A DNA stretch of 58,884 nucleotides, taken from Chloroflexota bacterium (GTDB lineage Bacteria > Chloroflexota > Limnocylindria > Limnocylindrales > CSP1-4). Location: contig PMKN01000064.1 of assembly GCA_003158675.1 (NCBI GenBank), forward strand, positions 1 to 58,884, written 5' to 3'. Within the stretch, counting starts at the first letter, position 1. Every line of letters starts with the position of its first letter. The notes under the pieces were generated by a model. The model did no database searches and was not told the DNA's origin. It saw only the letters and a program-made list of their open reading frames with translations. Shown here piece after piece: positions 3,846-58,884 of this stretch. The position numbers and the translations under genes are program-made.

Positions 3846-5603
3846 ATGCGTGGCTGGAGCGAGGTAGCCGAACGCGTCGGGGCAACTACCCGCACCTCTG
3901 AGAAGACTGCACTGCTGGCCCGATACCTTGCGCCACTCTCCGGCAGCGAACTCAGGCCGGCGGCTGTCTTCCTGACCGGGCGGCCCTTCTCCGAGTCGGA
4001 CCGCCGGACCATGGGACTGGGCTGGGCGGCGATCTCGACGGCGGTAACGAATCTGGCCGGGACCACCGCCGGAGCGCTCGGGGCGGCCTACGATCGGTCG
4101 TCGGATCTGGGTCAGGCTGTCGCCCAAGTCCTGACTCTTCGAACCGATCAGCCGGACCCGGCCAACTCCCCGGAGATCGAGGAAGTGGCTGAGGCCTACT
4201 CCGCCATCGAAGCCGCTTCCGGAGCCGCTGCCAAGGGGAAGATCTTCGGCGGCTTGCTTGCGCGCTGCGATTGCCTGACGGCCAAGTACGTCGTCAAGAT
4301 CCTGACCGGGGAGTTGCGCATCGGGCTGCGAGAGGGGCTGCTCGAGGCGGCCATCGCCGAAGCGTTCAATCGACCCTTGGCCGATGTGCGAATGGCGGAA
4401 ATGCTGACCGGCGACGCCGGCGAGACCGCGGTCCTCGCCAAAGAGGGGCGACTGGGAGAAGCGCGCCTGCGGCTCTTTCATCCCATCAAGTTCATGCTCG
4501 CGACGCCGGCCGAAGATGCGGCGGAGATCCTTTCGCGGCTGGGACCCACGGTCTGGGTGGAGGACAAGTACGACGGCATCCGCGCTCAGCTGCATCGGCG
4601 CGGCGGCGAGTCTCGCCTCTACTCGCGCGACCTCAACGACATCAGCGATCAGTTCCCGGAAATCGTCGCGGCCGCGGGGGCGATGCCTTGGGATGGCATC
4701 CTCGACGGCGAGATCCTGGCCTATGCCGACGGCCACGTTCTGCCGTTTCTCAGTTTGCAGGCGCGGCTGGGCCGAAAGGATCCCTCCGGCGCGGTACAGG
4801 CTGAGGTGCCGGTGATCTACGTGGCCTTCGATCTGCTCGCCGTCGGGCCCAGGTCCGGCGGGGGCACGGCCGCGGCGTCCGCGCCACTTGCCGCTGTCGG
4901 GCCGCTTGCCGCTGTCGAGCCGCTGCTCTCGACACCTCTCGCGGAGCGCCGCCGTCGCCTCGAGGCGCTCGAACTGCCGGTCCTCGCGGACGGCGGACGG
5001 TTCGCGCGCTCGCACCTGGTGACCGCCGATTCGGTCGAGGCGCTGGATCGCGCCTTCGGCGAGGCCAGGGCGCGCCGCAACGAAGGCCTGATGGTGAAGG
5101 ATCCGCAGAGCGGCTACTCTCCGGGCCGGCGGGGCCTCGGCTGGCTCAAGATGAAGCGGGCCCTGGCAACACTGGACTGCGTCGTGGTCGGCGTGGAAGT
5201 CGGCCATGGCAAGCGCCATGGCGTCCTGTCGGACTACACGTTCGCGGTCCGCGACGAAGCCAGCGGACGGCACGTGACCATCGGCAAGGCGTACACCGGC
5301 CTGACCGATCGGGAGATCGCCGAGATGACGGCCTGGTTCGAGGCCCACACGCTGCGCCAGGCCGGCCGCTACCGACTGGTCGAACCGACCGTGGTGGTGG
5401 AGGTCGCGTTCGACGTCATCCAGCGCTCCACGCGCCACCAATCCGGCTTCGCGCTCCGATTCCCCCGAATCGTTCGCCTGCGTCCCGACAAGAGCGCGGC
5501 CCAAATCGACTCGCTCCAGACGGTCGAGCGCCTGCACGGCGAGCTGCAGACCGGCGCCGAATACCTGGTCACCGCCGATGCCCGCAAGCCGGTCCGCGAC
5601 TGA
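3846..5603 (+). CDS. lig: ATP-dependent DNA ligase (LigB/archaeal-like, with N-terminal DNA-binding domain)
   Basis: Motif I EDKYDGIRAQLH, LDGEI, YVAFDLL, EGLMVKD, WLKMK, SGFALRFPRIVRLRPDK. Confidence 0.93.
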   Translation: MRGWSEVAERVGATTRTSEKTALLARYLAPLSGSELRPAAVFLTGRPFSESDRRTMGLGWAAISTAVTNLAGTTAGALGAAYDRSSDLGQAVAQVLTLRTDQPDPANSPEIEEVAEAYSAIEAASGAAAKGKIFGGLLARCDCLTAKYVVKILTGELRIGLREGLLEAAIAEAFNRPLADVRMAEMLTGDAGETAVLAKEGRLGEARLRLFHPIKFMLATPAEDAAEILSRLGPTVWVEDKYDGIRAQLHRRGGESRLYSRDLNDISDQFPEIVAAAGAMPWDGILDGEILAYADGHVLPFLSLQARLGRKDPSGAVQAEVPVIYVAFDLLAVGPRSGGGTAAASAPLAAVGPLAAVEPLLSTPLAERRRRLEALELPVLADGGRFARSHLVTADSVEALDRAFGEARARRNEGLMVKDPQSGYSPGRRGLGWLKMKRALATLDCVVVGVEVGHGKRHGVLSDYTFAVRDEASGRHVTIGKAYTGLTDREIAEMTAWFEAHTLRQAGRYRLVEPTVVVEVAFDVIQRSTRHQSGFALRFPRIVRLRPDKSAAQIDSLQTVERLHGELQTGAEYLVTADARKPVRD

Positions 5604-49663: not shown

Positions 49664-51019
49664 CTACCAGCGCGGTGCGACCTGCGAGTCCAGGAGTTCG
49701 CGCGGGGAGACGCGCGGCCGGATCAGTCTGGCCTCGCCGCCGCGCACCGCCACCTCCGCAGCGGTTGGGTGCGACAGGAAGTACGGCATCGATTCGGTGA
49801 ATCCGTACGCGCCCGCGTCCAGCACAGCAATGAGATCGCCAACCTGCGGCTTCGGCAGCAACGCGGCCGTGGCGAAGACGTCCAGACCGGTGCAGAGCGG
49901 TCCCGCCACGGTAGTGGGAACGCGTTCACGCGAGTCGGCGTCCGTGGCCAGAAGCGCCAGGCGCTGCGGTTGACGCACGAGCGCGGTCCGAACCAGGTGG
50001 TTGATACCGCCATCGAGAATCGCGACCGGCGCCGCGTCGGTGCCTTTCACGTCCACGACCCGGGCCACGTACGCTCCTGCGGGCCCCACGAGGAAGCGGC
50101 CGGGCTCGAGCAGGACTTCCATCTCGCGCAGGGCGGGATCCCGGTCCCAACGGGCGCGCAGCTCCTCCAGCCGAGCCCCCAAAGCGGCGAGGTCCAGTGG
50201 CTTCTCGGCGTCGGCGTAGGGGATCCCCAGCCCGCCGCCCGCGTCCACGAGCCGGAGCGGAACGCCCGCCTCGGCGGCCACTTCCTCACCGACTGCCACC
50301 AGCTCCGCCACGTGATCCACCAGACGGTCGACGTCGAGCAGGTTGGACGCGCCGAAGGCGTGGATGCCGAGCAGCTCCAGGTTGGGTGACGCTGCAGCGC
50401 GCTTCGCCGCTTCCTTGAGGACCGGCAGCGGCATGCCGAACTTGCCTTCGGCGCCACCGATGAGACGGACCCGTTCGAACTTCGCGTCGTCGGCCACGGC
50501 GAGACGCAGCAGGACGGGCTGGCGACGCTGAAGCCGAGCCGCGATGCCTTCGAGACGCTCCAGCTCCCCTGGCGATTCGACGGTCACGGCGCCGATGCCA
50601 GCGGTCACCGCGGCGGCCAGCTCGTCGTCGCGCTTGCCCGGCCCGGTCATCGCGATCGAGACCGGGGCGAAACCCGCGCGGAGCACGGTTTCGAGCTCGC
50701 CGCCCGAGGCTATGTCAGCGCCGATGCCGCAACCGGCGACATGGGCGAGCAGGCCGAGCGCGGGATTGGCCTTGACGGCGAAGGCGAGCCGGAACCCGAA
50801 CGGGAGAACGGCCCCCAGCGCGTCGATGCGACGGCCGATCAGGTCCAGGTCGTAGACGTAGAGCGGCGTCCCGAAGTCCCTCGCCAGCGCAGCCGGGGAA
50901 GCCCCGCCCAGAAGCCCGTCGCCGAGCATGGTGTCGATTTGGGGCGGCCGGGGGGCTTCCGCCTGCTCGACCGAAGGGTCGGCCGCCTGTTCGACCGAAG
51001 CCGGCTCCTGGGTGGTCAC
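49664..51019 (-). CDS. lysA: Diaminopimelate decarboxylase (fold-type III PLP), atypical motifs
   Basis: FGTPLYVYD, FAVKANP, ASGGEL, TGPGKR, DAGGGLG, EPGRFLV, AGAYG; last gene of dap operon (GTGA overlap). Confidence 0.82.
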   Translation of the reverse strand: MTTQEPASVEQAADPSVEQAEAPRPPQIDTMLGDGLLGGASPAALARDFGTPLYVYDLDLIGRRIDALGAVLPFGFRLAFAVKANPALGLLAHVAGCGIGADIASGGELETVLRAGFAPVSIAMTGPGKRDDELAAAVTAGIGAVTVESPGELERLEGIAARLQRRQPVLLRLAVADDAKFERVRLIGGAEGKFGMPLPVLKEAAKRAAASPNLELLGIHAFGASNLLDVDRLVDHVAELVAVGEEVAAEAGVPLRLVDAGGGLGIPYADAEKPLDLAALGARLEELRARWDRDPALREMEVLLEPGRFLVGPAGAYVARVVDVKGTDAAPVAILDGGINHLVRTALVRQPQRLALLATDADSRERVPTTVAGPLCTGLDVFATAALLPKPQVGDLIAVLDAGAYGFTESMPYFLSHPTAAEVAVRGGEARLIRPRVSPRELLDSQVAPRW

Positions 51020-51816
51020 CGCAGGGCCTCCCGGAGAGCGACTCTGGCGTCGGTGCGCTCGTCGCGGTACTTGACGATGACCGCGGCCGAAAGGCCGATG
51101 CCGTTCGCCTCCGCGAATTCGCCGCGAGCTTGCCGTACGCCCGGCGCGACAACGGCTCCGGCCGGCACGATGAGCGGCTCCTCCAGCGTCCCGACGATGA
51201 CGCGGGCCTGCACGAGATCGTACAAGCGGCTCGTGCCCGTCAGGATCGTTCCTGCGGCGATCACCGCGCCGCGCTTGACGAGCACGCCCTCGAGCAGCGC
51301 CGATTGCGCCCCGACGAAGACCTCGTCCTCCACGATTACGGGCCGGCGGCCGGCCGGCTCCAGGACCCCGCCGATCTGGACCGCGGCCGAGAGATGGACG
51401 CGCGCCCCGATCTGGGCGCACGAGCCCACCAGGACGTGCGAGTCGACCATCGTGCCCTCGCCGACCCAGGCCCCGACGTTGATGTACGAGGGCGGCATGA
51501 TCGTCACGCCGGGCGCGAGATACACGCCGCGCCGGACCGAGGAGCCGCCCGGGACGACCCGCCACGGCTTGCCCGCCGCAAGCGCCGCGCGTGCCTCCTC
51601 CGAATCGAGCAGGTCCTTGACCGGTAGTCCAACGCGGTCGCGGAACTGGAAGGCTCCGTCGATGTTCCACGTTCGCGTGGCGCGGTCGGAGAACAGCGAC
51701 AGGATCGCCTGTTGGACCTCGGGATTGACTCGCCAACCGTCGGCCGAGGAAGGGTCTGGTTCGGCGGCCCGGCTCTCACCCGAATCCAAAGCCCGCAGGA
51801 TCGAGTCCATGCTCAC
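51016..51816 (-). CDS. dapD: Tetrahydrodipicolinate N-succinyltransferase
   Basis: RVVPGG, MPPSYINVGAWV, MVDSHVLVGSCAQIG, GGVLEP, IVKYRDERTDAR. Confidence 0.93.
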   Translation of the reverse strand: MSMDSILRALDSGESRAAEPDPSSADGWRVNPEVQQAILSLFSDRATRTWNIDGAFQFRDRVGLPVKDLLDSEEARAALAAGKPWRVVPGGSSVRRGVYLAPGVTIMPPSYINVGAWVGEGTMVDSHVLVGSCAQIGARVHLSAAVQIGGVLEPAGRRPVIVEDEVFVGAQSALLEGVLVKRGAVIAAGTILTGTSRLYDLVQARVIVGTLEEPLIVPAGAVVAPGVRQARGEFAEANGIGLSAAVIVKYRDERTDARVALREALR

Positions 51817-52781
51817 GCTACTCCCACGCCTGCCGGTGCGGTCGATGAGGTCGCTGCTCCGTCCGCGTCCGCATCGAGAAGCCCGAACCCCGTGAGAAGC
51901 GTCCGCATTCGGCTCCGGTGCGGCTCATCGAGCGGCATCAGCGGCATGCGCAGTGTGTCCGAGCAGAGTCCCATCAGCGACATGGCCGCCTTCACCGGGA
52001 CCGGGTTCGGGCCGCCCAGGAAGTTCGCCTTCATCAGCGGTAGCCAGCGCTCGTGGATCGCGCGAGCACGGTCCCAGTCGCCGGCGAAGGCCGCGTCGCA
52101 CAACTCCGCCATTTCGCCGGGGATCTCATTGGCGCACGTGCAAATGACTCCGTCGCCGCCGAGGGCGAGCATCGGCATCGTCCAGGTGTCGTCGCCTGCG
52201 AGGACCGAGAAGTCCGCTGGGCGCTCACTCAGTATCGTCGCAATCTGGTCCATGTTCGCCGACGCTTCCTTCAATGCCACGATCCGAGGATGCTCGGCGA
52301 GACGGAGGAGGGTTGCCGCCTCGACGTTCACGCCGGTGCGGCCCGGGACGTTGTAGACGATGATCGGGAGGTCGCCCTCATCGGCCACGGCTCGGAAGTG
52401 CGACTCGAGCATCCGCTGGTCGGGCTTGTTGTAGTACGGCGCCACGACGAGAGCGGCGTCCACGCCGAGCTTCGCGGCGCGCCGCGTCGAGCTGATCGCG
52501 GTCGCCGTGCTGTTGGAGCCGGTACCGGCGATGACACGAACACGCGCCCGGCTCGGCCGCTCGGACGCGACCTCCAGAGTCGTGCCGATGACCCACTCAT
52601 CTTCTTCGTGGCTCAAGGTCGGTGTTTCGCCGGTGGTGCCGCACGCGACCAGGCCGTGTATGCAGGCGTCGATCTGGCGGCGGACCAGCGCGCGGAAGGC
52701 AGCCTCATCGATTTCTCCGGACGGGGTGAATGGCGTGACGAGGGCCGTGAAGGCTCCTCGGAACTGGCGGCTGGGTGGCAT
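51813..52781 (-). CDS. dapA: 4-hydroxy-tetrahydrodipicolinate synthase
   Basis: TALVTPF, GTTGE, GTGSNST, APYYNKP, YNVPGRTG, ALKEAS, PVPVKAAM. Confidence 0.96.
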   Translation of the reverse strand: MPPSRQFRGAFTALVTPFTPSGEIDEAAFRALVRRQIDACIHGLVACGTTGETPTLSHEEDEWVIGTTLEVASERPSRARVRVIAGTGSNSTATAISSTRRAAKLGVDAALVVAPYYNKPDQRMLESHFRAVADEGDLPIIVYNVPGRTGVNVEAATLLRLAEHPRIVALKEASANMDQIATILSERPADFSVLAGDDTWTMPMLALGGDGVICTCANEIPGEMAELCDAAFAGDWDRARAIHERWLPLMKANFLGGPNPVPVKAAMSLMGLCSDTLRMPLMPLDEPHRSRMRTLLTGFGLLDADADGAATSSTAPAGVGVA

Positions 52782-52810
52782 CTCGGTCGCTCCTTGAGGA
52801 ATCGCGGGGT

Positions 52811-53626
52811 TCAGTGGGAGGCGTGGGAGTCAGGCTGGGCGGCCGCTCGGCCGTCCGATCCGGAGCCAGCAGAGGCTCTGGCGATGATCGAGTCGAGGAC
52901 ATCGTCGAAGCTATGGAAACCGGGTGCGCGTGGCTCGGCCAGCAGCCACTCGGCGGCGGCGATAGCCCCGGAGGCGTAGGCCGACCGATCTCGAGCGGTC
53001 AGGCGCATCTCCAGGCTCTCGCCCGGGGCGTCGAAACCGACCAGATGCATGCCCGGGGCCGCGCCTGCCCGGATGACCGACACGTCCAGCTCCTCGGGCG
53101 CGGGCGAGCCGTGGACCATCGGCTGAGCCACGCGGGTCTTGCGCGGATGCGCGGCTATGAGCCGGCGGGACAGCTCGATGGCGGTGCCCGAGGGGCGATC
53201 CGTCTTGGTGCGACGGTGCCACTCGACCAGATATGGGTCGTATTCGGCAAACGGGCCGAAGAGCCGGGCCGCGTCCTCTACGAGACGGGCGAACAGCATG
53301 ACGCCGAGGCTGAAGCTGGCCGATGCGACTGCCGCGGCGCGGCCATCGAGCAGCAGCCGCTCGACCTGGGGGCGGTCGGCGGCCCAGGCCGTCGTGCCGA
53401 TCACGAAGTTGCGGATGCCCGCGTCCAGTGCTGCCTGCACGTTCGGAAGAACGGCCTCGCCGACGCTGAAATCGAACAGCACGTCCGCGCCACGGAAGCG
53501 CTCCGGCAGGTGGCCGGCGGCGGAGTCAGGCATGCCCAGGATCGCCTGGGGCGGCATGCCGCGGCCCGCCAGCGCAGACGCAACCACCAGACCCATGCCT
53601 CCGTCCCCGGCGACGATACTCAGCAT
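52811..53626 (-). CDS. dapB: 4-hydroxy-tetrahydrodipicolinate reductase
   Basis: GDGGMG, DFS, VIGTT, SFSLGV, EWHRRTKTDRPSGTA, RSAYASGA; SD GGAGG. Confidence 0.9.
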   Translation of the reverse strand: MLSIVAGDGGMGLVVASALAGRGMPPQAILGMPDSAAGHLPERFRGADVLFDFSVGEAVLPNVQAALDAGIRNFVIGTTAWAADRPQVERLLLDGRAAAVASASFSLGVMLFARLVEDAARLFGPFAEYDPYLVEWHRRTKTDRPSGTAIELSRRLIAAHPRKTRVAQPMVHGSPAPEELDVSVIRAGAAPGMHLVGFDAPGESLEMRLTARDRSAYASGAIAAAEWLLAEPRAPGFHSFDDVLDSIIARASAGSGSDGRAAAQPDSHASH

Positions 53627-53664
53627 TCCGATTTGCCTCCGTGGTTGTTCCGACGTGGTCCCAG

Positions 53665-53703
53665 AAAATGGAAAGCCGCGGCACCTGTTTGCGGTGTCGC
53701 GGC
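53665..53703 (-). terminator. Attenuator terminator
   Basis: Minus strand GCCGCGACACC-GCAAACA-GGTGCCGCGGC followed by TTTCCATTTT, 39 nt upstream of dapB start. Confidence 0.75.
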
Positions 53704-53755
53704 CCTCGGAGCCTTGCCCTCTGGCTCCGCGGTTCATCCGAAACGCCGCCGAGCC

Positions 53756-53824
53756 TTAGGGCCGAGCCTCGCGGCAGGGCCGCCAACGCTTCGACTTGGG
53801 CTTGGCGGGCAGCTGGATGAACAT
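53756..53824 (-). CDS. Leader peptide MFIQLPAKPKSKRWRPCREARP (22 aa)
   Basis: ATG 9 nt after CATAAT -10; AAG codons at positions 8, 10, 12; TAA stop. Confidence 0.7.
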   Translation of the reverse strand: MFIQLPAKPKSKRWRPCREARP

Positions 53825-53833
53825 TGCTGGCGG

Positions 53834-53863
53834 ATTATGCACCAACTGACAACAGATGCGCAA
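53834..53863 (-). promoter_or_regulatory. Sigma70-like promoter of leader-dap operon (TTGCGC-18-CATAAT)
   Basis: Hexamers at 53858-53863 and 53834-53839 in an AT-enriched patch. Confidence 0.55.
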
Positions 53864-53876
53864 CCATTGCGGTCAT

Positions 53877-53916
53877 TATGCAGAGTGCATACGAGGAGCT
53901 GCATAGACAGCATGCA
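53877..53916. promoter_or_regulatory. Candidate operator: TATGCA-GAG-TGCATA palindrome plus TGCAT-N7-ATGCA
   Basis: 15-bp dyad at 53877-53891; 14-mer identical to kamA upstream element; second dyad at 53900-53916. Confidence 0.65.
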
Positions 53917-54017
53917 TCGCGGATAGGAGGCCCGCCAGGACTGGGCGCGGCGCCGCAGGCCCGGGGTAGGGATTTCCCGCCGTTCCTCGCGCCTTTGACG
54001 GTGCTACCTTCGATGGC

Positions 54018-56111
54018 ATGGAGTCCATTCGACGCCGGCCCACTCGGGGTTCTGCGGCCGTCGCGCTGGCCGTAATTGCGGCGGTTGCGTCAGTGACGGC
54101 GCTGCGCTTGCCAGCGCCGGATGTGGGGTTCCACCTTGCCTACCAGAACGGCGAAGTCGAAGTCTCGTCGGTGGACTACGGCAGCGCGGCCCAGTCGGGC
54201 GATATGCAGTCCGGCGTCGTTGTCACGTGGCTGAACGGTCAGTACCTGCTTGGCATGTCCGAGCAGGCCAAACGCGACCTCGTCCAATCGGGCGGGCCCT
54301 GGGTGACGTTGCGGACCACGACCCGAGACCAGGTGGCCGCCGAGGAGGCCGCGTACACGAAGCTCGCCGCCGTGGCGCGCCAGAGCGATACTCCCTGGCT
54401 GGCGAATCCCGAGGCGAACCCGGTGCCGGCGTGCTACCTGGACGGGACGTGCATCCCTTTCGAAACACGGTGGCAGGCGGATGGCGGCAGTTTCACCTAC
54501 TCCATCCTTAGCCCCATGGTCGAGGGCGCCGCACTGTGTCTGCCCACGGATGGCAACCAGGTTTCGGTATCGTTCGCGGAATCCTTGTTGCAGCCGGACG
54601 GGGCGGGATCCTACACGGTTTATGCGACCGGAGCGCAATTCTGCGTCCTGGGTTCCCCGGTTCCCGGCGCTTCCCCATACGGGTACATCGGTGCATCCGA
54701 CCAGTTGTACTTCCGGGACTGGTGGATGCCGGTCGGGTCCGACCCCGGACCAGCCATCCTCGGCTTCGCGATCCTGCTGTTCGGTTGGCTCATCGTCGGC
54801 CGCGGCTGGGCCGGCTCGACACTCAAGCCCTTCGCCCTGACGCTTCCGCTTGCCACGGCGGTGCCGCTGCTCGTAGTGCCCATCGACCGCTACCCGACTC
54901 TGGCGGCGCTTGTCGCGGGTTCGATCCTGGTGCCGATGGCCATGCTGCCGCTCGCCATCGACTTCCTCGACCGGATGGATCGTGGCTCGCGCCGGTCGCT
55001 CGTCGCTTCGGTCACCGTTGGACTGGCGCTCGGATCCGCCGGCTGCGGACTCCTGATGCCTGCCGATTACGCTCTGGTCGTGCTGCGCGCCTTCCTGGCC
55101 GGTTGTGTGCCATTCGTCCCCGGCCTGTTCGCGGCCCGCCCGTTCCACCGCCTGGAATCGGGCGCGATCCCCGGCCGCAGCCGGTGGCGTGGCGTTGCCG
55201 CAAGCGGGTTGACATTGATCCCAGGGCCGTTCGCCGCTCGGCTGGCGCGCCGGCTCGAGTTCGGCTCGGCCGCGTCGTCGAGCCCGACTCCTCGCGCGCT
55301 GATCGATCGGGTCGACATACTGCTGGCGGCCATGACGCCTGGCATCGCCGCGATCTGCCTTACCTCCCCGTACAAGGTCGCGGTCGAGCCTCTCCTGTAT
55401 TGGCTGGCAGCGTTGCTGGTCGCGACCCGCCTCATCGTGCGGCCTCTCGGGCGGCTCGCGACAGTTGCGGTCCGCCAGCGCGATCTGGTCGTCGCCGCCA
55501 CCGAAGCTGAGCGGACTCGGATCGCCGCCGACATCCACGACGATGCCCTCCAGGATCTGACGATGCTGGTGCGCCGACTCGACGCGGCCGGCGACGCGCA
55601 GAACGCGCAGGCGGCACGAGACATCGCCGAGCGGCTGCGAGCGATCTGCGGCGACCTGCGGCTGCCGGTGCTCGACGATCTTGGCGTCGGCCCGGCGCTC
55701 GAATGGCTATGCAGCCGGTTGGACGTGAAGACCGAACCCATCACGCTCGACCGTCTCGATGGCGAAGCCAGGCTTCCGGCAGACGTCGAGCTGGCCGTCT
55801 TCCGGATCGCCCAGGAAGCTCTCTCGAACGCGGTCCGGCATGGCGCGGCGCCTGTCGTGGTGCGCTATCGGGCGCGGGACGGATGGGTCGAACTCGAGGT
55901 GGACGACGCCGGCCCGGGGATCGCGGATGGCGCGGCCGAGCTGGCCGAGAAGACCGGTCACCTGGGGCTGCTCAACATGACGCAGCGATCCGAGGCCGTG
56001 GGGGCGAGACTCTCGATCCGCGGCAGGCCGGGCGGCGGCACGCGGGTCTCTTTCGTCTGGGAACGCGCGAGTTCCACGAACGGCGCCGTGGCCGCGATCG
56101 CTCCCGCATGA
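54018..56111 (+). CDS. Membrane sensor histidine kinase (HisKA_3/NarX-like) with PDZ-like N-terminal region
   Basis: RIAADIHDDALQ H-box, QEALSNAVRHG, DDAGPG, GHLGLLNM; multiple TM. Confidence 0.88.
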   Translation: MESIRRRPTRGSAAVALAVIAAVASVTALRLPAPDVGFHLAYQNGEVEVSSVDYGSAAQSGDMQSGVVVTWLNGQYLLGMSEQAKRDLVQSGGPWVTLRTTTRDQVAAEEAAYTKLAAVARQSDTPWLANPEANPVPACYLDGTCIPFETRWQADGGSFTYSILSPMVEGAALCLPTDGNQVSVSFAESLLQPDGAGSYTVYATGAQFCVLGSPVPGASPYGYIGASDQLYFRDWWMPVGSDPGPAILGFAILLFGWLIVGRGWAGSTLKPFALTLPLATAVPLLVVPIDRYPTLAALVAGSILVPMAMLPLAIDFLDRMDRGSRRSLVASVTVGLALGSAGCGLLMPADYALVVLRAFLAGCVPFVPGLFAARPFHRLESGAIPGRSRWRGVAASGLTLIPGPFAARLARRLEFGSAASSSPTPRALIDRVDILLAAMTPGIAAICLTSPYKVAVEPLLYWLAALLVATRLIVRPLGRLATVAVRQRDLVVAATEAERTRIAADIHDDALQDLTMLVRRLDAAGDAQNAQAARDIAERLRAICGDLRLPVLDDLGVGPALEWLCSRLDVKTEPITLDRLDGEARLPADVELAVFRIAQEALSNAVRHGAAPVVVRYRARDGWVELEVDDAGPGIADGAAELAEKTGHLGLLNMTQRSEAVGARLSIRGRPGGGTRVSFVWERASSTNGAVAAIAPA

Positions 56112-58332: not shown

Positions 58333-58884
<552 letters not shown>

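What the first reader, a model, noticed from the sequence alone, without database searches (positions are those of the whole stretch)
53665..53863. Lysine-codon leader peptide with classical attenuator geometry upstream of dapB-dapA-dapD-lysA
Seen (minus strand): a promoter, then ORF MFIQLPAKPKSKRWRPCREARP with AAG at codons 8, 10 and 12. Stem 1:2 CGCCAA/TTGGCG (53807-53802 / 53786-53781) encloses the Lys codons and overlaps segment 2. Segment 2 GCGGCCCT (53783-53776) is exactly complementary to AGGGCCGC (53706-53699), which includes the 5' arm of the terminator. The terminator 3:4 (53703-53675) has a U-rich tail before the dapB SD. A ribosome stalled at the early Lys codons would break 1:2 and free 2:3 (read-through); a ribosome reaching the stop would cover segment 2 and allow termination. 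Known: this logic is established for trp, his, leu, thr, ilv and phe operons, whereas lysine operons are typically controlled by the L-box riboswitch, which is not seen here. I know of no well-characterised Lys-leader attenuator, but cannot check the literature.
Basis: partly seen in the sequence, partly recalled or inferred. Interest (0 to 1): 0.86.

Follow-up and report, generated by a model that had tools for sequence, protein, structure and literature searches.

The report
Lysine-codon leader attenuator before dapB
A tiny, probably leaderless 22-codon gene with lysine codons at fixed positions, followed by a switchable terminator, sits before the lysine-synthesis operon of an uncultured soil Chloroflexota bacterium, and sister copies of the same RNA switch carry methionine or cysteine codons before methionine and cysteine genes, so the ribosome itself most likely senses amino-acid supply.

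Summary
On the minus strand there is a promoter (-35 53863-53858, -10 53839-53834), an SD-less ATG 9 nt after the -10, the ORF MFIQLPAKPKSKRWRPCREARP* (53824-53756), a GC-rich terminator (53706-53663), then dapB-dapA-dapD-lysA.

The element is conserved in 24/24 genomes of the genus, in 115/201 genomes of the family (39/49 genera), and in a second family of class Limnocylindria. Rfam 15 has no match.

The decisive evidence is a natural codon swap. Homologous leaders share the same core (xWRP = strand GCGGCCCY, complementary to the terminator's 5' arm):
- Lys at ORF positions 10 and 12: before dapB in 74/77.
- Met: before metY in 36, also before metG.
- Cys-x-Cys: before cysE-cysK in 6/6.

All three classes occur in this genome.

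Its stem 1:2 is not. Strand 2 is instead held in a covarying hairpin (H1) whose downstream arm contains the stop codon.

Best reading (about 0.78): ribosome-mediated transcription attenuation that senses Lys-tRNA charging. This is a new variant of a known kind. The principle is textbook, and a Lys leader in Thermus is known to me from memory only. The new parts are the lineage, the leaderless design and the Lys/Met/Cys scaffold. No RNA data could be obtained.

The parts
53834..53863 (-). Promoter: -35 TTGCGC (53863-53858), 18-nt spacer, -10 CATAAT (53839-53834). The start codon lies 9 nt after the -10, so the mRNA is leaderless or has a 5' UTR of at most 3 nt.
   Evidence: Read directly from the sequence. 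82 of 100 homologous leaders have TTGnnn-17/18-xAxxxT ending 6-10 nt before the start codon. Only 1 of 100 has an SD-like motif.
53756..53824 (-). Leader ORF, 22 codons plus TAA: MFIQLPAKPKSKRWRPCREARP*.
   Evidence: The ORF is present in 24/24 genomes of the genus, and TAG, TAA and TGA are all used as the stop. The promoter-proximal ATG/GTG is in frame with the conserved CGG-CCC in 90/91 leaders, despite six different spacings.
53789..53803 (-). Sensing codons: Lys8 (53803-01), Lys10 (53797-95), Lys12 (53791-89).
   Evidence: Across 101 leaders, position 10 is K in 73 and M in 26, and position 12 is K in 76 and M in 24. K leaders precede dapB and M leaders precede metY.
53776..53783 (-). Strand 2 (GCGGCCCU), the 5' strand of the antiterminator. 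It encodes part of Trp14-Arg15-Pro16-Cys17.
   Evidence: It is exactly complementary to 53706-53699. The pairing holds in 97.3% of cells over 87 leaders, with compensations C-G to U-A and C-G to A-U, and U-A to C-G. Arg15 is CGG in 101/101, so the constraint is at RNA level.
53752..53790 (-). Hairpin H1 (5' arm 53790-53773, loop GCGA, 3' arm 53768-53752). It sequesters strand 2 and acts as an anti-antiterminator. It may also be an RNAP pause hairpin. The stop codon lies in its 3' arm.
   Evidence: RNAalifold consensus. Covariation includes the third base of Arg13 with the third base of the stop codon (CG 60 / UA 9), plus TGG to CGG together with TAA to TGA in one genome.
53733..53821 (-). Closing helices around H1. 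P1: UUCAUCC 53821-53815 with GGAUGAA 53739-53733. P2: CGCC-A-AGCC 53807-53799 with GGCU-CGGC-GGCG 53755-53744.
   Evidence: Minimum free energy fold. 82.9% of cells are paired in the genus, 5 pairs change on both sides, and slid controls are at most 46%. Support is moderate.
53708..53728 (-). Hairpin H3 (GGAGCC ... GGCUCC) between H1 and the terminator.
   Evidence: Other genera have GCCUCC...GGAGGC at the same place (alignment). Its role is unknown.
53663..53706 (-). Intrinsic terminator: 5' arm AGGGCCGCGACACC (53706-53693, which includes strand 3 at 53706-53699), loop GCAAACA, 3' arm GGUGCCGCGGCUUU (53685-53672), U-rich tail to 53663.
   Evidence: The stem is 97-99% paired over 87 leaders, with 7 pairs changed on both sides.
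49664..53640 (-). Regulated operon: SD GGAGG 53640-53636; dapB 53626-52811; dapA 52781-51813; dapD 51816-51016; lysA about 51019-49664 (a GTG that overlaps the dapD stop).
   Evidence: Pfam and NCBIfam matches; for the lysA start.

Best explanation
This is a ribosome-mediated (leader-peptide) transcription attenuator that reports charged Lys-tRNA and controls dapB-dapA-dapD-lysA.

Transcription starts at or 1-3 nt before the ATG of a 22-codon ORF, which has no SD and so needs leaderless-type initiation.

Default state. The RNA folds into hairpin H1, closed by P1/P2. H1 locks strand 2 (GCGGCCCU, the Trp-Arg-Pro codons) against a downstream arm. The terminator then forms and transcription stops at about 53665.

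Lysine scarce. The ribosome stalls with Lys10 in its A site (in this genus also Lys8). Its leading edge then lies just 5' of strand 2. It has melted P1/P2 and the base of H1. Strand 2 pairs with strand 3 (AGGGCCGC, the terminator's 5' arm) as soon as strand 3 is made, and RNA polymerase reads through into dapB.

Lysine plentiful. The ribosome runs on over strand 2 (codons about 12-20) while the terminator is being transcribed, then terminates inside the H1 3' arm and leaves. H1 re-forms and the terminator wins.

Shown here: the ORF, its fixed sensing positions, H1, the terminator, the 2:3 complementarity, and the match between codon class and downstream pathway.

Inferred: the transcription start site, translation of the ORF, the timing of events, and which ribosome position gives read-through.
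For: 1. Conservation. The element is in 24/24 genomes of the genus, in 115/201 genomes and 39/49 genera of the family, and in a second family of the class.

2. Natural codon swap on one homologous scaffold.
- Leaders with at least 2 Lys in the six codons before W-R-P precede DapB in 74/77. The other 3 are contig ends.
- Leaders with at least 2 Met precede homocysteine synthase MetY (18, 18 more), Met-tRNA ligase or a ThrC-like enzyme.
- Cys-x-Cys leaders precede cysE-cysK in 6/6.
- There are no cross cases.
- Positions 10 and 12 are K or M in 99-100 of 101 leaders.
- All three classes occur in this genome: K in the window; M at contig C41 about 59562-59751, before the metY whose 3' end is 58333-58884; C at contig C52:1296-1435.

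3. The ORF behaves as coding. The start codon lies 6-10 nt after the -10, with no SD. The frame is kept in 90/91 leaders over six spacings. All three stop codons are used.

4. Structure. H1 plus terminator: 96.8% of cells paired, 13 pairs changed on both sides, 0/500 shuffles reach this. Pairing 2:3: 97.3% paired against at most 75% for slid controls.

5. Ribosome-mask folding of transcripts cut before the terminator's 3' arm.
- This window's leader: P(2:3) = 0.00 with no ribosome, 0.87 with the A site on Lys10, 0.33 on Lys12, 0 on codons 13-18.
- Medians over 101 leaders: 0.36, 0.87, 0.02, 0.

6. No riboswitch or T-box matches.
Against: - There is no experimental or transcript evidence.
- The topology is not the textbook one. 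The strand that sequesters strand 2 lies downstream of it, so a stalled ribosome cannot simply cover it.
- Equilibrium folding of the full leader always gives the terminator.
- In the cut transcripts about half of the leaders already form 2:3 without a ribosome. A ribosome at the stop codon also frees strand 2 (median 0.74). The direction of the switch therefore rests on kinetics and on biological sense.
- A stall on Lys12 would partly cover strand 2.
- Only 2-3 Lys codons are present.
- The covariation for 2:3 is thin because 7 of its 8 pairs hardly vary.
Confidence: 0.78

Rival explanations
1. Inverted logic: a translation-proficiency sensor. Read-through needs a ribosome that has passed strand 2 and sits on the H1 3' arm or stop codon, which frees strand 2. 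A ribosome stalled at codons 10-12 leaves H1 or covers strand 2 and causes termination.
For: In the leaders examined in detail, including this genome's K, M and C copies, the stop codon lies in or just after the H1 3' arm. Mask folding gives P(2:3) of 0.74 (median) at the stop and about 0 with the A site on codon 12.
Against: It would switch Lys, Met and Cys biosynthesis and Met-tRNA ligase off during starvation for their own product. It gives no reason for pathway-matched codons at fixed positions. P(2:3) is highest (0.87) with the A site on the first sensing codon.
Confidence: 0.06
2. A trans-acting factor, either an RNA-binding attenuation protein or a transcription factor on the upstream ATGCA boxes, is the real sensor. 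The shared GGCGGCCC / GGGCCGC core is its binding platform and the ORF is secondary.
For: The same core occurs before three different pathways. An array of ATGCA/TGCATAAT boxes lies upstream of the promoter (53917-53875) and is conserved in the genus.
Against: A shared core cannot give Lys, Met or Cys specificity, whereas the codons do. The core is fully explained as two mutually exclusive helices that covary. The boxes lie outside the transcript and would be an additional layer of control, not an alternative.
Confidence: 0.06
3. A metabolite- or tRNA-binding RNA switch (a new lysine riboswitch or a T-box-like element), with the ORF incidental.
For: The leader is a highly structured, conserved 160-nt RNA with covariation. 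Arg15 is always CGG, which is an RNA-level constraint.
Against: No L-box, T-box or other Rfam match. The conserved core is common to the Lys, Met and Cys leaders, and only the codons differ. The start codon sits at the promoter and the frame is kept in 90/91 leaders. No Stem I or specifier-loop architecture is present.
Confidence: 0.04
4. A nascent-peptide arrest element. The conserved (R/L)-W-R-P-x-R peptide stalls the ribosome from inside the exit tunnel (TnaC- or SpeFL-like), possibly in response to a ligand. The Lys codons would be part of the arrest motif.
For: W-R-P is conserved across classes. K-x-K and R-x-R are '+x+' motifs, known to slow peptide-bond formation in the presence of macrolides (abstract of PMC12583479). 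The ORF ends inside H1.
Against: Trp14 is replaced by G, R, L, M or T in 27 of 101 leaders. Arg15 and Pro16 show no synonymous variation, as expected for RNA pairing rather than for peptide selection. W14 to R in one genome is compensated by a change in the stop codon that pairs with it. The KKK to MCM to CxC swap follows the pathway.
Confidence: 0.05

Closest known systems
Classical leader-peptide transcription attenuators (E. coli/Salmonella trpL, hisL, leuL, thrL, pheL, ilvL; Corynebacterium and Streptomyces trp, leuS and trpS attenuators, PMC1262725)
   Same: A short ORF with codons for the end product, a mutually exclusive antiterminator and terminator sharing one strand, an intrinsic terminator before the first structural gene, and an aminoacyl-tRNA ligase among the targets (metG here; leuS and trpS in Streptomyces).
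   Different: The sensing amino acids are Lys, Met and Cys. The ORF has no SD and starts at the TSS. Only 2-3 sensing codons sit at fixed positions 10-12. The antiterminator strand is itself coding, and it is sequestered by a downstream arm that carries the stop codon, not by an upstream segment 1. One homologous scaffold serves several pathways. There is no sequence similarity to the Rfam leader families.
Leaderless polycysteine short ORFs of mycobacteria ('Cys ribulon'; Canestrari et al., bioRxiv 10.1101/834739)
   Same: Leaderless sensory sORFs as the first cistron. Ribosome stalling at cognate codons relieves repression. Several operons are coordinated by the same principle.
   Different: The mycobacterial ORFs carry runs of Cys, and stalled ribosomes unmask the downstream ribosome-binding site, which is translational control without a terminator. 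Here there is a strong intrinsic terminator and antiterminator, with Lys and Met classes as well, in Chloroflexota.
Leader-peptide attenuation of the Thermus thermophilus lysine (alpha-aminoadipate) gene cluster (Tsubouchi et al., J Biol Chem 2005; recalled from my own knowledge, not retrievable in the paper library)
   Same: Lysine codons in a short leader ORF control read-through into lysine-biosynthesis genes. Lys-codon attenuation as such is therefore not unprecedented.
   Different: A different pathway (AAA rather than DAP), phylum and leader. No homology was tested. No paralogous Met or Cys versions are known to me.
L-box (lysine) riboswitch, Rfam RF00168
   Same: The same regulatory target (dap/lys genes) and the same output (premature termination).
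   Different: The riboswitch binds lysine directly through a five-helix aptamer of about 180 nt. No match here even at E<=10, and the conserved core is shared with the Met and Cys leaders.

Membership tests
Ribosome-mediated leader-peptide transcription attenuators | A short ORF in the leader enriched in codons for the amino acid made by the downstream operon | tested here: met
   Lys at codons 8, 10 and 12. Positions 10 and 12 are K in all DapB leaders. Met or Cys sit at the same positions before metY, metG and cysEK.
Ribosome-mediated leader-peptide transcription attenuators | The leader ORF is translated | not testable with these tools
   Indirect evidence only: the start codon lies 6-10 nt after the -10 in 82/100 leaders, the frame is kept in 90/91, and TAA, TAG and TGA are interchangeable. 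No Ribo-seq or RNA-seq was available.
Ribosome-mediated leader-peptide transcription attenuators | An intrinsic terminator between the leader ORF and the first structural gene | tested here: met
   A GC-rich stem plus U tract at 53706-53663. The stem is 97-99% paired with 7 covarying pairs over 87 leaders. Termination activity itself was not tested.
Ribosome-mediated leader-peptide transcription attenuators | An alternative antiterminator helix that uses the terminator's 5' arm | tested here: met
   GCGGCCCU::AGGGCCGC is 97.3% paired with compensatory changes, and slid controls reach at most 75%.
Ribosome-mediated leader-peptide transcription attenuators | A ribosome stalled at the sensing codons favours the antiterminator, and an unstalled ribosome favours the terminator | tested here: inconclusive
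   Mask folding supports it: P(2:3) is 0.87 at codon 10 and 0 at codons 13-18. However, the model is an equilibrium one, 2:3 is also predicted at the stop codon, and the full-length fold always gives the terminator.
Ribosome-mediated leader-peptide transcription attenuators | An upstream segment 1 that pairs with segment 2 and is covered by the stalled ribosome (trp geometry) | tested here: not met
Segment 2 pairs with a downstream arm instead. The element works like an attenuator but with a different topology.
L-box lysine riboswitch (RF00168) | A match to the covariance model of the lysine aptamer | tested here: not met
   cmscan of 53300-54300 at E<=10 gave only noise hits.
T-box riboswitch (RF00230) | Stem I with a specifier loop, plus a T-box antiterminator bulge | tested here: not met
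   No Rfam match. The leader is only about 160 nt, and its conserved core is explained by H1, 2:3 and the terminator.
Mycobacterial leaderless Cys sORF attenuators | A stalled ribosome unmasks the RBS of the downstream gene (translational control, no terminator) | tested here: not met
   A conserved intrinsic terminator is present here. The dapB SD (53640-53636) lies 23 nt or more beyond the U tract and is not part of the conserved helices.

The most novel reading that the evidence does not exclude
The switch may read more than tRNA charging. The invariant (R/L)-W-R-P-x-R stretch, translated from the antiterminator strand itself and flanked by K-x-K and R-x-R motifs, could act as a nascent-chain brake that holds the ribosome on or just before strand 2. 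The stop codon embedded in the H1 3' arm could make ribosome release part of the decision. This would be a hybrid of codon-sensing attenuation and arrest-peptide control, reused as a plug-in module for Lys, Met and Cys.
Probability: 0.08. Interest if true: 0.8.

Novelty: new variant of a known kind. Interest (0 to 1): 0.58.

Why it matters
Lysine genes are usually described as riboswitch-controlled (L-box). This element shows that a large uncultured soil and peat lineage (Limnocylindria, Chloroflexota) uses ribosome stalling instead.

It does so with one RNA switch that evolution has re-targeted to lysine, methionine, cysteine and Met-tRNA ligase by exchanging two or three codons at fixed positions. 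That is a natural version of the codon-swap experiment used to prove attenuation.

It extends leaderless sensory sORFs beyond Actinobacteria. It offers a compact 160-nt module whose specificity should be programmable. It also provides an annotation rule for several hundred MAGs, in which these ORFs and the Lys/Met/Cys regulons are currently unannotated.

Tried and rejected
- **Rfam search of the leader** at permissive E-values found only noise.
- **The simple promoter and terminator scanner** missed both elements.
- **Classical alternative (H1 3' arm pairing with the terminator 5' arm):** 91% paired in Lys leaders, but no signal above shuffles, and the complementarity is lost in Met leaders.
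- **Equilibrium folding of full-length leaders with ribosome masks** was uninformative, because the terminator always wins. The measure 'strand 3 paired with anything upstream' was too unspecific and was replaced by the specific 2:3 probability.
- **T-box idea** from the ACCGCG in the genus leader was dropped. The motif is not conserved in the family and there is no Rfam hit.
- **The Thermus Lys-leader paper** could not be found in the library.
- **The whole-genome scan with model R2** missed this genome's own Met leader. It was found by reading the contig beyond the window.

Full report
**What is in the window**

Read on the minus strand, the 390-nt gap between a divergent histidine-kinase gene (54018+) and dapB holds these elements in order:
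- an array of ATGCA/TGCATAAT boxes (53917-53875);
- a promoter, TTGCGC (53863-53858), 18 nt, CATAAT (53839-53834);
- 9 nt later an ATG (53824) with no Shine-Dalgarno sequence;
- a 22-codon ORF, MFIQLPAKPKSKRWRPCREARP, ending in TAA (53758-53756);
- a hairpin GGAGCC...GGCUCC (53728-53708);
- a GC-rich terminator (53706-53672) with tail UUUCCAUUUUCU to 53663;
- then GGAGG (53640-53636) and the dapB ATG (53626).

The operon is dapB, dapA, dapD and lysA. The leader folds better than shuffled sequence (z = -2.6). No Rfam family matches, including the L-box and the T-box.

**Where it comes from and how widespread it is**

Record titles of the closest DapB loci name Chloroflexota MAGs of Candidatus Limnocylindria/Limnocylindrales from fens, peat and soil.
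- All 24 same-genus genomes with dapB carry the same leader: same promoter, an ATG at the same place, 22 codons in 21 of 24, and TAG, TAA and TGA all used as the stop.
- A covariance model of the genus alignment (R1) finds the element in 115 of 201 genomes and 39 of 49 genera of the family.
- It also finds it in a second family of the class.

**The decisive observation: one scaffold, different sensing codons**

In other genera the dapB leader reads, for example, MRRIFSTES-KKK-LWRPCREARALGL*.

Weaker R1/R2 hits are paralogous leaders with the same core. In all of them x-W/G-R-P is the RNA GGCGGCCCY, followed by a terminator whose 5' arm is RGGGCCGC. Their codons at the sensing positions differ:
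- ...SWL-MCM-RGRPRR..., ...SS-MMSM-PWRPRS..., ...T-MAM-RWRPRR...
- ...FA-CFC-PRRPRRRR*.

I classified 101 leaders by the six codons before W-R-P and identified the downstream ORF by BLAST against references that were themselves checked with NCBIfam.

| Leader class | Downstream gene |
|---|---|
| Lys | DapB in 74/77 (the other 3 are contig ends) |
| Met | homocysteine synthase MetY in 18 + 18; Met-tRNA ligase in 1; a ThrC-like enzyme in 1; a few unresolved |
| Cys-x-Cys | cysE-cysK in 6/6 |

No leader is mismatched to its pathway.

Numbered as in this window, position 10 is K (73) or M (26), and position 12 is K (76) or M (24).

All three classes are present in this very genome:
- the Lys leader in the window;
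- a Met leader (M..SS-MMSM-TRRPRSAEDGV*) at contig positions about 59562-59751, before the metY whose 3' end is at 58333-58884 of the window;
- a Cys leader (VKSHSFACFCPRRPRRRR*) before cysE-cysK on contig C52.

A ligand- or protein-binding RNA shared by three pathways could not provide specificity. Codons read by the ribosome can.

**Is the ORF real?**

- 82 of 100 leaders have TTGnnn-17/18-xAxxxT ending 6-10 nt before the start codon, and only 1 has an SD-like motif. Translation would therefore have to be leaderless or nearly so.
- With promoters located without regard to frame, the first ATG/GTG after the -10 is in frame with the invariant CGG-CCC in 90 of 91 leaders, across spacings of 11, 12, 14, 15, 16 and 27 codons.
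- This is indirect evidence. Translation itself is not shown.

The conserved WRPCREAR peptide is better explained by RNA constraints:
- Arg15 is CGG in 101/101 and Pro16 is CCC in 93/101, with no synonymous variation.
- Trp14 is replaced in 27 leaders.
- In one genome TGG to CGG is compensated by TAA to TGA in the stop codon it pairs with.

**RNA structures**

- **Hairpin H1** (53790-53773 with 53768-53752) starts at the Lys12 codon and contains the stop codon in its 3' arm.
- **H1 and the terminator together** are 96.8% paired over 87 leaders, with 13 pairs changed on both sides. None of 500 shuffles and no slid control comes close.
Compensations are C-G to U-A, C-G to A-U, and U-A to C-G. 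The last of these also separates this genome's Lys leader from its Met and Cys leaders. Most of its positions are invariant, so the covariation is thin, but the complementarity is not implied by H1 or the terminator alone.
- **The classical alternative**, the H1 3' arm pairing with the terminator, shows no signal, and the complementarity is not evident in the Met leaders read by eye.
In two genomes where CGCC becomes CUCC it is the downstream GGCG that becomes GGAG. This supports a closing helix P2 around H1 instead.

**How it most likely works**

The sensing codons sit at a fixed distance from strand 2. The first nucleotide of codon 10 is 14 nt before it, and the first nucleotide of codon 12 is 8 nt before it.

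A ribosome with codon 10 in its A site would end just before strand 2, having opened P1/P2 and the base of H1. A ribosome reading codons about 12-20 would lie on strand 2.

I folded transcripts cut before the terminator's 3' arm, with a 27-nt ribosome mask.

| Ribosome position | P(2:3), this window | P(2:3), median of 101 leaders |
|---|---|---|
| none | 0.00 | 0.36 |
| A site on codon 10 | 0.87 | 0.87 |
| A site on codon 11 | 0.67 | 0.68 |
| A site on codon 12 | 0.33 | 0.02 |
| A site on codons 13-18 | 0 | 0 |
| A site on the stop codon | 0.54 | 0.74 |

This fits the classical logic:
- a stall before strand 2 gives the antiterminator;
- an unstalled ribosome on strand 2 gives the terminator;
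- no ribosome gives H1 and the terminator.

There are clear caveats:
- The model is an equilibrium one.
- Full-length folds always give the terminator.
- A ribosome lingering at the stop codon would also free strand 2.
- About half of the leaders form 2:3 without a ribosome in the cut transcripts.

The direction of the switch therefore rests on the requirement that biosynthetic genes and metG be induced by starvation, and on kinetics that I cannot compute. A role for H1 as a pause hairpin is pure inference.

**Comparison with what is known**

The principle is that of the trp, his, leu, thr and phe attenuators and their actinobacterial relatives (PMC1262725). That survey found no RNA element for lysine or methionine in Actinobacteria.

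The leaderless sensory ORF resembles the mycobacterial polycysteine sORFs (bioRxiv 10.1101/834739), but those act on translation without a terminator.

From my own memory, a Lys-codon leader attenuates the Thermus thermophilus aminoadipate lysine cluster (Tsubouchi et al. 2005). I could not retrieve the paper. If it is as I recall, lysine attenuation as such is not new.

I found no paper on such leaders in Chloroflexota, and Rfam 15 has no model.

Earlier notes of this scan describe the same element in related genomes, including the Met/Lys/Cys idea. I treated them as leads. I had already found the Lys/Met split before reading them, and I then verified the Cys class myself.

**Verdict**

It is a new variant of a known kind: a leaderless Lys/Met/Cys family of homologous attenuators with an unusual topology in an uncultured phylum-level lineage. 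It is well supported by comparative genomics and untested experimentally.

Noticed in passing
window 53875-53917 (minus strand), upstream of the leader promoter: An array of ATGCA-type boxes (ATGCAT, TATGCA x2, TGCATAAT), plus a second TGCATAAT that forms the -10. It is conserved in position in the same-genus leaders. It could be a set of transcription-factor sites or a second promoter, which would add a layer of control. Earlier first-reader notes on related genomes saw the same boxes.
   Followed up: no
window 58333-58884 (minus strand) and contig C41 about 59562-59751 (locus L252 63-252): The window ends inside metY (homocysteine synthase). Its own leader, just outside the window, is a Met-codon paralogue of the dapB leader (MNAIAFSRRENSRRASTLRSSMMSMTRRPRSAEDGV*) with GCGGCCCC / GGGGCCGC and a terminator. 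R2 scores it at 24 bits.
   Followed up: yes
G000 contig C52:1296-1435 (locus L232 297-436): A Cys-codon paralogue (VKSHSFACFCPRRPRRRR*, GTG start 6 nt after the -10 CATGAT) lies before cysE-cysK in the same genome. Five same-genus genomes have the same arrangement.
   Followed up: yes
locus L200 (G042:C46), hit 296-434: A Met-codon leader (MNRHDATMAMRWRPRREAGVA*) precedes methionine-tRNA ligase (metG), so an aminoacyl-tRNA ligase is under the same type of control.
   Followed up: partly
loci L093 and L094 (second hit at 4186): Leaders with M-T-M-A-M or R-M-A-M precede a threonine-synthase-like PLP enzyme with an N-terminal Cys-rich motif. It could be a MetM-type homocysteine-forming enzyme rather than ThrC.
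   Followed up: no
locus L238 (G013:C70), hit 320-483: A leader with N-M-C-C (MKTFGALENMCCPWRPRRVENGV*) precedes an amidohydrolase or cytosine-deaminase-like gene. Its link to sulfur amino acids is unclear.
   Followed up: no
loci L077 and L067 (hit at 2753), downstream ORFs of 178-192 aa: Some Met-class leaders are followed first by a conserved protein of about 180 aa with no NCBIfam match (the L077 ORF was scanned). In L067 this small gene lies directly upstream of the Lys leader and dapB.
   Followed up: no
window 52811-53626 (minus strand): DapB here is divergent. The N-terminal domain matches Pfam only over residues 39-85, and the NCBIfam dapB score (113.6) is below the cut-off (122). The small-genome sister family of the order gave no match to this DapB.
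   Followed up: no
window 49664-51736 (minus strand): The 690-aa ORF in the mechanical list is an artefact of high GC content. Its first 239 codons overlap dapD in another frame. lysA most likely starts at the GTG at 51019, which overlaps the dapD stop (GTGA) and suggests translational coupling.
   Followed up: partly
locus L012 (G013:C224), between the terminator and dapB: About 190 nt of tandem GGCCACTCGGCCC-like repeats are inserted between the attenuator terminator and the dapB SD in one relative. In L004 a 34-nt duplication repeats the -10 and the start of the leader ORF.
   Followed up: no
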